A stretch of DNA of 64,000 bases from Escherichia coli. GTDB lineage: Bacteria > Pseudomonadota > Gammaproteobacteria > Enterobacterales > Enterobacteriaceae. How positions within the stretch are numbered: position 1 is the first letter of the stretch; each line of letters begins with the position of its first letter. Location: assembly GCF_024298765.1 (NCBI RefSeq), contig NZ_CP101211.1; one strand, given 5' to 3'. Shown in pieces: positions 1-3,000 of this stretch. Made by a program: the position numbers.

Positions 1-3000
1 ATGATTAAAAACAACGAGTTAATCCATCCTTTTGACGTAACCAGTAATGAATCAGGTAAGACTTATCAACTGACGCCTAACTCGTCCAAGTCGGTTCAGC
101 CCGTGGCCCTGTTGAGATTGAGTGTATTTACCCCTGTCGGCACAAAAGAAAACCGCGACCGAAACTTTGAAGTTGATGCCTCTGATGAGCTTTCGTGTAT
201 GGAAATTGCAAGATCGGAGGGTTATGACGACATCAAGATAACTGGTGTCAAACTATCTATGTCTACCGACTTTAAGTGCTGGCTCGGGATCATCATGGCT
301 TTCAGTAAATATGGTTTTACTTCCGAGAAGATTACCCTGACTTTTAACGAGTTTGCGAAGATGTGTGGTATCAGTTCAACAAACATCAACAAACGAACTC
401 GTGCGCGCTTTAAAGAGTCATTAATGAACCTTGCATCGGTAGTGCTTGCCTTCTCAGACTCTCGGAGTGGTCGGTTCACAGTAACGCATCTGGTGCAGAA
501 GGCTATGATTGATCCAAAAAGCGATACTGTTGAGTTGGTTGGGGATCCTTCTATGTGGGAACTGTATCGTTACGACCATAAGACATTGTTAAGCCTTCAG
601 GTTCTATACATTTTGGCTAAAAAAGAAGCTGCGCAATCTCTCTATATTTATTTTGAAGCAATGCCAGCTGGTACGTTGTTCGTTAATATGAAACGGTTGA
701 GGGAAAGGTTGCTTCTTACAACCCCTATTCGTACGCAAAACCAGATAATTCGTAAAGCAATGCGGGAACTTGAATCTATCGGATATCTCGATTATCAAGA
801 AGTTAAGAAAGGTCGCGACATACAATTTCAGATCTTCAAAAGAAGCCCTAAGCTGGCCCTCGCCAAACAAGGTTGAAAGCTACCAGGTATGCACTGGTTA
901 TAACATGCTGAAAAATAAGTTATTTATCAGTGCTATGCTTAGTGCTTCTTTTACTACTGGTCTTACATCTCGGCTTAATGTGCAAAAAAGTAACTTTTCA
1001 AACGAACTCCTGACTATTCATCTGTATGCCTTTCTGACTCAAGCGTACATGCTAGCCCATTCATTAAATGCCGTGGAGCAAGATGGTTTCGTGCGCACTC
1101 TATTCACGTGAATGCCTTTTGTGGATTACGCCTCTTACATTCATACAAATGCTTTTGATGTCGGTATCCCAAAAAATCATTCATTGAAATGCTTTTGTTT
1201 GCCACTGTATCCCGAGCATAGCTATGCAGTGGTATAAAAAGGCATTTTGGTGAATGGCATTAGGTCGAATGACACACAGTACAGCTTTGTTAAGAGCGAG
1301 AATGGTCCAAGACATCTATGACATTGGGCATCAGAAGGACTATGTGTTTGATATGAGATCAAAAAAATATCAGAAGCATCACAACTCCAATGGCATTCAA
1401 AGAAATGCCTTTGTTTTGTTAGTACACCAAACAACCCAAAATTCATGCAGTTATATCAAAGACTCATTCGCAAAAGGACTCAGCCAGAAAGCATTTGCTT
1501 AAATAGCATTGGCCAAAAGCATTCGAATGAATGATGTTCATATGGACAAGACAAAGTCCCACTCACGCCCAGAGGTGTAAAAGGCATTTAGATGAATGAC
1601 GCACCGGCCGAGGATTGTATGTAGTTTCTCCAACTGATAGTTGCCGAACCAGGGAGCACAGTGATATGCGGCCTTCTCAGAATCAAGAGATAGATATTAA
1701 GGGAACAAAAAAGATTAGATATGAAGCTTAGTTACCTGCCCGATATCTAGTTAGAGCTTTTCAAACCATCAAAAGTGACTTTTATGCTTGAGGAGTCTCA
1801 TCAGCTTCAGGATTGAGCTTAACGTAATCTTACCCCCTCCCCTCTTTCAAACTTTTACTAAGCGTTCACTGGTACTTTTCAAAGATTATGCTTTAGGCCT
1901 CTTTGCTTAAAAATTCACCAATCGCTAAACGTTAAAAAAAGGGGGTTTATGCGAACGGAAGGATCGGAATAAAAAAGTATTATTCATTCGCGTTTACGTG
2001 AACTCAAATCTACACGGAGTAATTATGGAACTTTCTTTAAATATTGGCCTTAGTGAAAAGAAATCTAACACGGCTGCACTTTTTAAAACAAAAAGCGCAA
2101 AAGTGATTTTGTTTGTTCTGCTGACCGTGCTTTTTTGCGGTCTGGCATATGCGGGTTCAGATGATGGGGCACTGGGAGATATTTGGTCATACATGAGTGA
2201 AAGTATGACTGGAGCTCCGGGCAAAATTCTGGCAGCCGCGATGTTGATCTCAAGCGTATATTTCTCTGTCCTTAAGCCTAACCCGGGCCTGGCACTGGTT
2301 TCATTATTCATGATGCTGGTAATGGCCAACGGCGAGAAAATTATCAGCACCTTTATGGATGCTGGCGTACCGCTGTAATTTATTGTTAATCATGCATGAG
2401 GGGGTTCATCCCCCTCTCTGGATTTTTAATGAGTAAGCAGAACGACGTTCCTCAGCATACCTATAGATTCCCTTTCAGGATCAACATGCCTCTACTGATT
2501 TTGTTTTGGGATGCAAAAAAAATAGGGCTTGCATTCATTCTGGTTGCATTTGGGAATATCTTCGAATGCTTCGGGTTTTCTGTTGTAGCAGCGGTTGTAT
2601 ATTGGATTGCGTATAACAAAGCAGCTGAGTCAGGAATAAGAGGATTGCTAAAACACAGACTCTGGTGGCTCGGTTTTTTGCCAGGTAAAGCAGTTTTTAG
2701 TAGCCGTTATTTCAACGATCCATTTATCAGAGATTTGTATTCTTGATGGAGCTATGAATGAAAATGCTAAGTGGCATTAACATCCCTTTTTTCAAAAAAT
2801 CTAAAAAGGATGAAAACGGTGATCTTGAACAGTCATACGTAAAGAAAGATGAAAGTGCTAAGGGACGTTTTTTGGACATTAAAAAACGATTTAGCCCACA
2901 AGCTGAAGCGTCAGGTGCTGGAATTACATACAGCGCCCTGATTAATCGTGATACAAAACTTATCCGCATTAATACTGTTTCAATAGCCGTCATTGGGTTA

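What the first reader, a model, noticed from the sequence alone, without database searches (positions are those of the whole stretch)
1107..1605. Iteron cluster downstream of repA with motifs in both orientations
Repeats containing AAAGGCATT occur in direct and inverted orientation over ~500 bp. The listed ORF 1254-1502 overlaps them and is probably spurious. The repeats could form part of the origin or an incompatibility/copy-control locus; a further set may lie upstream of repA outside the window.
Basis: partly seen in the sequence, partly recalled or inferred. Interest (0 to 1): 0.35.

Follow-up and report, generated by a model that had tools for sequence, protein, structure and literature searches.

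The report
Copy-control iterons of IncHI2 RepHI1A replicon
The repeats are real binding-site repeats (iterons) for the plasmid's replication initiator, lying just after its gene in a well-known IncHI2 (R478-type) resistance plasmid, and most likely act as the copy-number brake of an already described replicon, so the finding is correct but ordinary.

Summary
A 19-bp motif, C-ATTCA-N5-ATGCYTTT, has 8 strong copies in the 64-kb window, all between 1016 and 1597. Five are on the + strand and three on the - strand, against 0.57 expected by chance. Three or four weaker copies lie in the same stretch. The cluster starts at about 1014, not 1107.

The window is an IncHI2 plasmid of the R478 type. Bases 1-876 encode its RepA, which is 86% identical to RepHI1A RepA of the IncHI1 plasmid pHCM1 and 45% identical to P1 RepA.

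In full-length copies of the plasmid, a second set of 4 iterons lies 52-134 bp upstream of repA, outside the window. Their 21-23 bp spacing matches P1 oriR, and a GATC cluster and an AT-rich stretch lie beside them. The downstream cluster therefore sits where P1 has incA, which also has iterons in both orientations.

IncHI1 plasmids keep the same motif on both sides of repA, although the surrounding DNA no longer aligns.

My best reading is a RepA-titrating or handcuffing locus that controls copy number and incompatibility. The origin itself is upstream. ORF 1254-1502 is spurious. The replicon is already described (Newnham & Taylor 1994; Page et al. 2001).

In passing: a conserved 13-bp palindrome, AAAAGTNACTTTT, is dispersed over the plasmid backbone and brackets the cluster.

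The parts
1..876 (+). repA, the 291-aa initiator of the RepHI1A/RepHIA replicon of IncHI2 plasmids.
   Evidence: Pfam Rep3_N (E 6e-7) and Rep3_C. It is 86% identical to pHCM1 (IncHI1) RepA and 45% identical to P1 RepA. It is the first gene of R478, NC_005211.1 1-876.
979..987 (-). Single DnaA-box-like 9-mer, TTTTGCACA, between the repA stop codon and the first iteron.
   Evidence: It is the only match to TTWTNCACA in 860-2030. A single consensus match is weak evidence.
986..998 (.). 13-bp palindrome AAAAGTAACTTTT, at the left boundary of the iteron cluster.
   Evidence: A copy sits at the same relative position, just after the repA stop, in IncHI1 (L003 3398 and L004 897).
1016..1033 (+). Iteron 1 (ATTCATCTGTATGCCTTT).
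   Evidence: Exact motif match; matrix score 23.7 bits.
1058..1075 (+). Degenerate iteron-like copy (CATTCATTAAATGCCGTG) with a spacer 1 nt short and no TTT tail.
   Evidence: Read directly from the sequence and listed in repeat family D17. It is below the matrix threshold.
1102..1119 (+). Iteron 2 (ATTCACGTGAATGCCTTT).
   Evidence: 25.5 bits.
1139..1156 (+). Iteron 3 (ATTCATACAAATGCTTTT).
   Evidence: 25.9 bits.
1179..1196 (+). Iteron 4 (ATTCATTGAAATGCTTTT).
   Evidence: 28.5 bits.
1238..1255 (-). Iteron 5, inverted (ATTCACCAAAATGCCTTT on the - strand).
   Evidence: 27.5 bits.
1253..1270 (-). Weak iteron-like copy overlapping iteron 5 by 3 nt.
   Evidence: 14.7 bits. It has 2 mismatches to the motif (L001 5253-5270, which is window 1253-1270).
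1389..1406 (-). Weak inverted copy overlapping iteron 6. It reflects the internal GCATT...AATGC dyad of the iteron.
   Evidence: (14.7 bits) and inverted repeat I2.
1395..1412 (+). Iteron 6 (ATTCAAAGAAATGCCTTT).
   Evidence: 27.3 bits.
1487..1504 (-). Weak iteron-like copy (ATTTAAGCAAATGCTTTC on the - strand).
   Evidence: 14.1 bits; 2 mismatches.
1515..1532 (-). Iteron 7, inverted (ATTCATTCGAATGCTTTT on the - strand).
   Evidence: 26.9 bits.
1580..1597 (-). Iteron 8, inverted (ATTCATCTAAATGCCTTT on the - strand).
   Evidence: 28.7 bits.
1771..1783 (.). 13-bp palindrome AAAAGTGACTTTT, at the right boundary, 254 bp upstream of the trhA-like gene's ATG at 2025.
   Evidence: An identical sequence closes the iteron array in IncHI1 (L003 4525 and L004 2105).
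1254..1502 (+). Mechanical ORF of 82 aa, judged not to be a gene.
   Evidence: No Pfam family. It is absent from the PLSDB gene tables of identical plasmids. It overlaps 1 strong iteron (1395-1412) and 3 weak ones, and its first 2 nt overlap strong iteron 1238-1255. The two substitutions against R478 at 1281 and 1347 both fall on first codon positions and change the amino acid.

Best explanation
Window 1014-1599 holds the downstream iteron array of the RepHI1A (also called RepHIA) replicon of an IncHI2, R478-type plasmid.

The iterons are 19-bp sites, C-ATTCA-N5-ATGCYTTT, for the RepA protein encoded at 1-876. RepA belongs to the P1 RepA / RepFIB branch of the Rep_3 initiators.

The replicon has the P1 layout. 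Upstream of repA, just outside the window, lie an AT-rich stretch, a Dam-site cluster and four iterons phased at 21-23 bp. That is the origin, and it probably also serves as the autoregulated repA promoter region. Downstream of repA lies this cluster of 8 strong and 3-4 weak iterons, irregularly spaced and in both orientations. It corresponds to P1 incA.

By analogy with P1 incA and the downstream repeats of RepFIB, RepA bound at these sites would pair with RepA bound at origin iterons, on the same or a sister plasmid (handcuffing). The sites would also sequester RepA. Both effects would hold copy number down and make the cluster an incompatibility determinant, while the cluster itself would be dispensable for initiation.

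Shown here: the repeats, their statistical excess, their conservation in IncHI1, the homology of RepA to P1 RepA, and the two-set architecture. Inferred: RepA binding, handcuffing or titration, and dispensability.
For: Motif excess and clustering: 8 matches against 0.57 expected, all within 582 bp. The position weight matrix separates strong copies (at least 23.7 bits) from the rest of the window (at most 16.3 bits).

Identity of the plasmid: 1,118 plasmid records are at least 95% identical over bases 1-2000, and the records examined in detail are typed IncHI2A / MOBH / MPF_F. R478 itself starts with this gene and differs at 17 positions in 2,400, none of them in a strong iteron.

RepA homology: 86% to pHCM1 RepA; 45% to P1 RepA, E 2e-79; 45.8% to IncFIB(K) Rep.

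Conservation: IncHI1 loci carry the same motif. Four copies lie upstream of repA with spacing 21/21/23. Downstream there are 3 '+' copies and then about 15 '-' copies. BLAST finds no alignment of this intergenic DNA between the two plasmids.

Upstream set in IncHI2: L001 3866, 3887, 3908 and 3931 (spacing 21/21/23). Four GATC sites lie in 48 bp at 3754-3801, with another at 3843. There is an IHF-like site, and GC is 17-22% at 3570-3660. The R27-type upstream region adds tandem DnaA boxes, TTATCCACG and TTTTCCACA.

Curated P1 record: oriR consists of a DnaA box, 5 Dam sites and 5 incC iterons at 21-22 bp spacing. Then come repA and incA with 9 iterons. At the threshold I used, five of the nine incA copies were recovered, two '+' and three '-', so both orientations are present there.

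Same two-set layout in more distant relatives, each with its own iteron sequence: pPrAq2 (62% RepA identity) and IncFIB(K).

The downstream region has no AT-rich stretch (lowest GC 0.32 in 60-bp windows) and its iteron spacing is irregular: 86, 37, 40, 59, 157, 120 and 65 bp.
Against: No functional test was possible. The primary papers on this replicon (Page, Whelan & Colleran 2001; Newnham & Taylor 1994) are not held in the library. What they showed about which repeat set is essential could therefore not be checked.

The cluster differs from P1 incA in several ways. It starts 139 bp after the stop codon rather than at it. It spans about 585 bp rather than 285 bp. Its spacing is irregular.

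A DnaA-box-like 9-mer lies at 979-987, next to four same-orientation iterons (1016-1196). That arrangement could in principle serve as an origin.

The IncHI2 upstream region has no strict DnaA box.

Substitutions between IncHI2 lineages avoid the strong iterons, but not significantly: 0 of 12 against 1.5 expected.
Confidence: 0.75

Rival explanations
1. The downstream cluster, or its first four same-orientation iterons at 1016-1196 with the adjacent DnaA-box-like site, is the replication origin or part of it. The upstream iterons would then serve only as the repA operator.
For: A TTTTGCACA DnaA-box match lies at 979-987. Four '+' iterons fall within 180 bp. Some iteron replicons do place their origin downstream of rep (general knowledge). 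The strict pattern finds no DnaA box upstream of repA in IncHI2.
Against: Spacing of 86/37/40 bp is not the roughly two-helical-turn phasing of origin iterons. There is no AT-rich unwinding region and only one GATC in 877-1900. The upstream region reproduces P1 oriR module by module. In IncHI1 the downstream set has expanded to about 18 copies in 43-44-bp tandem units, which is how control arrays behave, not origins.
Confidence: 0.15
2. Besides, or instead of, replication control, the cluster is a regulatory region for the adjacent transfer operon (trhA-like gene, traL, traE, traK and onward). RepA, or the protein that binds the flanking palindromes, would set transfer-gene expression.
For: The cluster fills the 1.1-kb gap between repA and the first Tra1 gene. 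It is bracketed by two copies of a backbone-wide conserved palindrome, one of them about 250 bp upstream of that gene.
Against: Nothing links RepA to transfer-gene control. No convincing promoter was found in the cluster. In relatives without adjacent transfer genes (P1, IncFIB(K), pPrAq2) the downstream iterons are still present.
Confidence: 0.07
3. The repeats are chance similarity in AT-rich intergenic DNA, or they reflect a real protein-coding gene (ORF 1254-1502 or ORF 770-1111).
For: Both ORFs are open for 82 and 113 codons.
Against: None of 100 shuffles reached 8 matches. The motif is conserved in IncHI1 while its surroundings are not. The ORFs have no Pfam hits, are absent from the gene tables I checked, and differ from R478 only by non-synonymous changes.
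Confidence: 0.02

Closest known systems
RepHI1A(R478) / RepHIA replicon of IncHI2 plasmid R478 (Page, Whelan & Colleran 2001, Microbiology 147:1591; Gilmour et al. 2004, Plasmid 52:182)
   Same: It is the same locus. R478 (NC_005211.1) begins with this repA, and the first 2,400 bases differ from the window at only 17 positions. All eight strong iterons are identical. IncHI2 plasmids are reported to carry the RepHI1A and RepHI2 replicons (PMC4855149).
   Different: Nothing structural differs. The window belongs to a sub-lineage about 0.7-0.8% diverged from R478. I could not read the primary papers, so I do not know how fully they mapped or tested the downstream repeats.
RepHI1A of IncHI1 plasmid R27/pHCM1 (Newnham & Taylor 1994, Mol Microbiol 11:757)
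   Same: RepA is 86% identical. The iteron consensus is the same. Four upstream iterons have identical 21/21/23 spacing. The position between a divergent upstream gene and the trhA/traL/traE transfer genes is the same. Downstream iterons occur in both orientations.
   Different: The IncHI1 downstream set is much larger: 3 '+' copies and then about 15 '-' copies in 43-44-bp tandem units over about 1.1 kb. IncHI2 has 8 strong copies with irregular spacing and no tandem unit. The intergenic DNA is otherwise not alignable. R27-type plasmids keep two good DnaA boxes upstream, whereas in IncHI2 they are degenerate.
P1 plasmid replicon: oriR/incC, repA, incA
   Same: RepA is 45% identical over 271 aa. 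The order of modules matches: Dam-site cluster, iterons at 21-22 bp, repA, then a downstream array with iterons in both orientations. The mechanism proposed here (handcuffing and titration by the downstream array) is the one established for P1 incA (general knowledge; the P1 record's repA note describes initiation at oriR, self-repression and pairing).
   Different: The iteron sequence is unrelated (P1: GATGTGTGCTGGAGGGAAA). P1 has 5 upstream and 9 downstream iterons in a compact 285-bp array starting at the stop codon, with 30-41 bp spacing. Here there are 4 upstream and 8 strong downstream (plus weak ones), spread over 585 bp starting 139 bp after the stop. P1 is followed by parAB, this replicon by transfer genes.
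RepFIB-type replicons (P307 RepFIB; IncFIB(K) of Klebsiella plasmids)
   Same: The Rep family is the same: 45.8% identity to IncFIB(K) Rep. Iterons lie on both sides of rep, and the downstream ones are in mixed orientation (L008).
   Different: The iteron sequence differs (ATTGACTGCGGTATGTA in IncFIB(K)). The Rep protein there is longer (336 aa against 291 aa). The incompatibility group and neighbouring genes differ. This replicon is not a RepFIB replicon in the typing sense.

Membership tests
P1 RepA / RepFIB-type iteron replicon | Initiator homologous to P1 RepA / RepFIB RepA (Rep_3 fold with WH1 and WH2 domains). | tested here: met
   45% identity to P1 RepA, E 2e-79. Pfam Rep3_N and Rep3_C are above their cut-offs.
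P1 RepA / RepFIB-type iteron replicon | Multiple copies of a roughly 19-bp repeat (iteron) next to rep, in excess of chance. | tested here: met
   8 exact motif matches against 0.57 expected, all in 1016-1597. Position weight matrix scan.
P1 RepA / RepFIB-type iteron replicon | Upstream iteron set with about two-turn (21-22 bp) phasing just before rep, next to Dam sites, DnaA boxes and an AT-rich region (the origin). | tested here: met
   This lies outside the window but is present in an identical plasmid, L001. Iterons at 3866/3887/3908/3931; 4-5 GATC at 3754-3846; GC 17-22% at 3570-3660. DnaA boxes are degenerate in IncHI2 but intact in the R27-type plasmid.
P1 RepA / RepFIB-type iteron replicon | Second iteron set downstream of rep, with copies in both orientations (incA-like). 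| tested here: met
   5 '+' and 3 '-' strong copies at 1016-1597. P1 incA also has both orientations.
P1 RepA / RepFIB-type iteron replicon | Downstream set dispensable for replication, lowers copy number and exerts incompatibility. | not testable with these tools
   This needs mini-replicon deletion, copy-number and incompatibility assays.
P1 RepA / RepFIB-type iteron replicon | RepA binds the iterons. | not testable with these tools
   This needs gel-shift, footprinting or ChIP experiments. Only co-conservation of RepA and the motif across IncHI1 and IncHI2 supports it.
RepHI1A/RepHIA replicon of IncHI plasmids | RepA closely related to R27/pHCM1 RepHI1A RepA and identical or nearly identical to that of R478. 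| tested here: met
   86% amino-acid identity to pHCM1. R478 repA differs at 5 of 876 nt.
RepHI1A/RepHIA replicon of IncHI plasmids | Location inside transfer region Tra1, immediately upstream of the trhA-like gene, traL, traE, traK, htdO and trhB. | tested here: met
   Annotations of L001, L003 and L012. Pfam TraL, TraE and TraK_C hits on the window's ORFs.
RepHI1A/RepHIA replicon of IncHI plasmids | Shared iteron consensus with IncHI1 RepHI1A. | tested here: met
   26 matches in L003 and 18 in L004, at up to 2 mismatches, against fewer than 1 expected.
Replication origin proper (oriV) | AT-rich unwinding element and helically phased iterons within the finding's coordinates. | tested here: not met
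   Lowest GC is 0.32 in 60-bp windows over 877-2000. Spacing is 86/37/40/59/157/120/65 bp.
Replication origin proper (oriV) | DnaA box(es) adjacent to the iterons. | tested here: inconclusive
   There is one TTWTNCACA match at 979-987. A single 9-mer match is not informative.

The most novel reading that the evidence does not exclude
The iteron cluster is bracketed, in both IncHI2 and IncHI1, by copies of a 13-bp palindrome, AAAAGTNACTTTT. The palindrome is dispersed over the IncHI backbone (18 sites in this window) and conserved at orthologous positions. In the first units of the IncHI1 array it alternates with the iterons.

The palindrome could be the site of a plasmid-wide DNA-binding protein, such as a ParB/KorB-like protein or a transfer regulator. 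It could also be bound by RepA dimers, since its right half resembles the iteron's GCCTTTT end. In either case the downstream 'control' locus would couple replication control to partition or transfer regulation, rather than being a plain incA equivalent.
Probability: 0.1. Interest if true: 0.45.

Novelty: already known. Interest (0 to 1): 0.12.

Why it matters
IncHI2 plasmids are major carriers of mcr-1, mcr-9, ESBL and heavy-metal resistance genes. Knowing which DNA sets their copy number and incompatibility is useful for replicon typing, for plasmid-curing strategies and for building mini-replicons.

This replicon and its iterons have been described since 1994-2001, and the architecture is the textbook P1/RepFIB one.

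Three modest additions come out of this work. The first is an exact iteron map for the IncHI2 version. The second is the finding that IncHI1 and IncHI2 share one iteron consensus while differing about two-fold in the number of downstream copies. A shared consensus is a plausible basis for cross-incompatibility between the two sub-groups; that is inference, not tested. The third is the conserved backbone palindrome noticed in passing.

Tried and rejected
Rfam scan of the whole replicon region at E up to 1: no RNA family. An antisense-RNA control element of a known kind is therefore not supported.

Consensus promoter and terminator scan: nothing above background. The one terminator-like hit (1392-1409 in window coordinates) is just the internal GCATT...AATGC dyad of iteron 6. 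The repA promoter could not be placed confidently.

NCBIfam and PDB sequence searches with RepA: no hits.

Substitution pattern as a test of purifying selection on iterons within IncHI2: too few differences. Twelve fall in 877-2000 and none in a strong iteron, against 1.5 expected; not significant.

Literature: Page et al. 2001, Newnham & Taylor 1994, Gabant et al. 1993, Sherburne et al. 2000 and Lawley et al. 2002 are not held. Open-access papers mention the replicon only by name. The 76-81-bp 'long iterons' of R478 discussed in reviews belong to the other replicon, repHI2, not to this one.

The IncHI iteron motif is absent from the 62%-identical pPrAq2 replicon, which has its own iteron. The motif is therefore specific to the IncHI1/IncHI2 RepA clade.

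A paper on R27 transfer-gene regulation (PMC7366339) does not mention any motif or binding site that would explain the palindrome.
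Full report
**What is there.** Window 1-876 is an open reading frame of 291 codons. Its product matches the Pfam initiator domains Rep3_N and Rep3_C. Between its stop codon and the next gene lies 1.1 kb without a credible gene. That next gene is a trhA-like pilin gene, starting at 1998 or 2025, and it is followed by traL, traE, traK, htdO and trhB.

In this gap the pattern ATTCANNNNNATGCYTTT occurs eight times without mismatch. Five copies are on the + strand (1016, 1102, 1139, 1179 and 1395) and three on the - strand (1238, 1515 and 1580). It occurs nowhere else in the 64-kb window even with one mismatch allowed. Shuffles give 0.57 matches on average and never more than 3.

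A position weight matrix built from the eight copies gives a 19-bp consensus, C-ATTCA-nnnaa-ATGCyTTT. The eight copies score 23.7-28.7 bits. Three weak copies score 14-15 bits (1253, 1389 and 1487, all on the - strand). The best score elsewhere in the window is 16.3. A further degenerate copy, one base short in its spacer, is at 1058-1075.

The only correction is that the cluster starts at about 1014. The stated start of 1107 lies inside the second iteron.

**Where the window comes from.** Bases 1-2000 are at least 95% identical to 1,118 plasmid records, and 1,111 of these are at least 99% identical. The hosts are Escherichia, Salmonella, Enterobacter, Klebsiella and others, and 965 of the records are predicted conjugative. 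The records I looked at in detail are typed IncHI2A / MOBH / MPF_F.

The reference IncHI2 plasmid R478 starts with this same gene. It differs from the window at 17 of the first 2,400 positions, and none of those falls in a strong iteron.

IncHI2 plasmids are reported to carry two replicons, RepHI1A and RepHI2 (PMC4855149). The characterisation is attributed to Page et al. 2001 (cited in PMC4980987). The 76-81-bp 'long iterons' of R478 belong to the other replicon, repHI2 (PMC8490738).

RepA here is 86% identical to the RepA of the IncHI1 plasmid pHCM1, which sits in the same place upstream of the trhA-like gene and traL. The locus is thus the RepHI1A/RepHIA replicon.

**Comparative evidence that the repeats are functional.** In two IncHI1-type loci the same motif is strongly enriched. 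L003 (pHCM1) has 26 matches at up to 2 mismatches, against 0.9 expected. L004 (a Citrobacter freundii plasmid) has 18, against 0.6 expected.

In L003, four copies lie just upstream of repA. Three '+' copies follow repA, and then come about fifteen '-' copies in 43-44-bp tandem units. L004, which starts at repA, shows the same downstream pattern.

Yet BLAST aligns only the coding regions of the two plasmids, at about 73% identity. The intergenic DNA around the iterons does not align. The motif has been kept while everything around it has changed.

Within IncHI2 there is too little variation to add anything. None of 12 intergenic differences falls in a strong iteron, against 1.5 expected.

**The other half of the replicon lies outside the window.** The window begins at the repA ATG. 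In L001, a full-length plasmid identical to the window over the 6 kb compared, four more iterons sit at 3866, 3887, 3908 and 3931. That is 134 to 52 bp before the ATG, with spacing of 21, 21 and 23 bp.

Upstream of them are four GATC sites embedded in AGATCA repeats within 48 bp, a fifth GATC, an IHF-like site, and a stretch of 17-22% GC.

The R27-type sequence has the same arrangement and adds two tandem DnaA boxes, TTATCCACG and TTTTCCACA, directly before the GATC cluster. In IncHI2 these boxes are degenerate (TTATCATTG and TTTTCAACA).

**Comparison with P1 and RepFIB.** RepA is 45% identical to P1 RepA over 271 residues (E 2e-79). It is 45.8% identical to the Rep of IncFIB(K) plasmids.

The curated P1 record lists the following, in order. 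First comes a DnaA site, then five Dam sites, then five incC iterons at 21-22 bp spacing overlapping the repA promoter; together these form oriR. Then comes repA. Last comes incA with nine iterons. A simple identity scan recovered five of the nine incA copies, two '+' and three '-', so both orientations occur there.

The IncHI replicon repeats this plan module by module. Two further relatives keep the two-set layout with mixed orientation downstream, each with its own iteron sequence. They are pPrAq2 (62% RepA identity) and IncFIB(K).

**How it most likely works.** On this basis the downstream cluster in the window is the positional and architectural equivalent of P1 incA. In P1 it is established knowledge that incA is dispensable for initiation. 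It restrains copy number by RepA-mediated pairing with origin iterons (handcuffing) and by binding RepA, and it exerts incompatibility when cloned. I infer the same here.

Features of the cluster fit a control array better than an origin. Its spacing is irregular (86, 37, 40, 59, 157, 120 and 65 bp). Both orientations are present. There is no AT-rich stretch and only one GATC. In IncHI1 the equivalent array has expanded about two-fold by tandem duplication.

The main rival reading is that the four same-orientation iterons at 1016-1196, together with the DnaA-box-like 9-mer at 979-987, form an origin. I give this about 0.15. A mini-replicon deletion would settle it.

I could not read the two primary papers. 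My recollection that they describe iterons on both sides of repA is unverified, and I do not use it as evidence.

**ORF 1254-1502.** It has no Pfam family. It does not appear in the PLSDB gene tables of the RefSeq records examined, although those tables are incomplete. It overlaps one strong iteron and three weak ones.

The two substitutions that distinguish the R478 lineage inside it, at 1281 and 1347, both fall on first codon positions and change the amino acid. ORF 770-1111 is equally unsupported. No Rfam family matches the region.

**Seen in passing.** The 13-bp palindrome AAAAGTNACTTTT occurs 18 times in the window at up to one mismatch, and 8 of these are exact. The shuffled expectation is 0.58. 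It is by far the commonest 6-N-6 palindrome in the window; the next commonest has 2 exact copies. Among the 30 palindromes with the same arm composition, the runner-up has 5 hits.

Copies at 986 and 1771 bracket the iteron cluster. IncHI1 has copies at the same two relative positions, and three more interleaved with the first tandem iterons.

Nine window sites fall in DNA that aligns with pHCM1 at about 73% identity. At five of them all twelve specified bases are conserved, and only the central base varies. The pHCM1 accessory segment (IS1, betT, IS4) has none.

Many sites lie inside genes, and 8 of 13 of those are in the reading frame that spells KVT(F/L). I found no description of this motif in the papers available. 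Its function is unknown. A dispersed operator or parS-like site for a backbone-encoded protein is one candidate.

**Verdict.** The finding is real and was correctly interpreted. It is also already known: it is the downstream iteron array of the RepHI1A/RepHIA replicon of R478-type IncHI2 plasmids, which are built on the P1/RepFIB plan. Interest is low.

Noticed in passing
window 986, 1771, 4824, 5074, 7133, 19079, 24089, 24283, 28176, 31723, 37928, 38246, 38722, 45371, 49116, 52687, 57657, 61102 (13 bp each); L011 (pHCM1) 3398-47260: The 13-bp palindrome AAAAGTNACTTTT is dispersed over the window. There are 18 sites at up to 1 mismatch (8 exact) against 0.58 expected, and it is the commonest 6-N-6 palindrome in the window.

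Five of nine alignable sites are fully conserved in IncHI1 at about 73% background identity, with only the central base free. The pHCM1 accessory segment has none.

Two copies bracket the iteron cluster in both IncHI1 and IncHI2. Sites lie both in genes and between them, and 8 of 13 genic sites read KVT(F/L). The binding protein is unknown. No description was found in the papers searched.
   Followed up: partly
L003 (pHCM1) 3850-4520; L004 1390-2100: In IncHI1 the downstream iterons form about 15 tandem units of 43-44 bp. Each unit is an iteron plus a more or less degenerate AAAAGTGCCTTTT-like element.

RefSeq annotates a 'hypothetical protein' (L003 3823-4167, - strand) entirely inside this array, and another in L004 (1927-2112). 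Both are probably spurious.
   Followed up: partly
L001 3570-3948 (window -430 to -52, outside the window): This is the probable origin of the replicon. It has a stretch of 17-22% GC, four AGATCA/GATC repeats in 48 bp plus a fifth GATC, an IHF-like site, and four iterons at 21/21/23 bp. The tandem DnaA boxes seen in R27-type plasmids (L003 2231-2249) are degenerate here.
   Followed up: yes
NZ_CP050763.1 31253-32902 (hit H71): In one Salmonella IncHI2 plasmid the otherwise identical repA is split in two by an IS1B insertion. This replicon can therefore be lost, presumably because the second replicon (RepHI2) carries replication.
   Followed up: no
L004 968-1031: An 8-bp microsatellite, (CTTCCCTG) repeated about 6 times, lies between the first two downstream iterons of a Citrobacter freundii IncHI1-type plasmid. 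pHCM1 has a single copy of the unit at the same place.
   Followed up: no
window 1998-2378 and 2396-2746: Start codons of the first two transfer genes are annotated inconsistently among identical RefSeq records. The trhA-like gene starts at 1998 (GTG) or 2025 (ATG), and traL at 2396 or 2429.
   Followed up: no
window 1392-1409: Iteron 6 with its internal GCATT...AATGC dyad, followed by TTTGTTTTGT, scores as a terminator-like hairpin on the + strand. The scan found one such site against 1.8 expected in shuffles, so this is probably incidental.
   Followed up: partly
L007 (pPrAq2, Pectobacteriaceae) 2325-2432 and 3344-3546: A 62%-identical RepA in a 61.7-kb IncFII-typed plasmid has its own iteron, AAAGCGGTTACTTTCATAA. 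Five copies lie upstream at 21-23 bp spacing. Three direct and two inverted copies start at the rep stop codon. It is a compact, textbook version of the same layout.
   Followed up: partly
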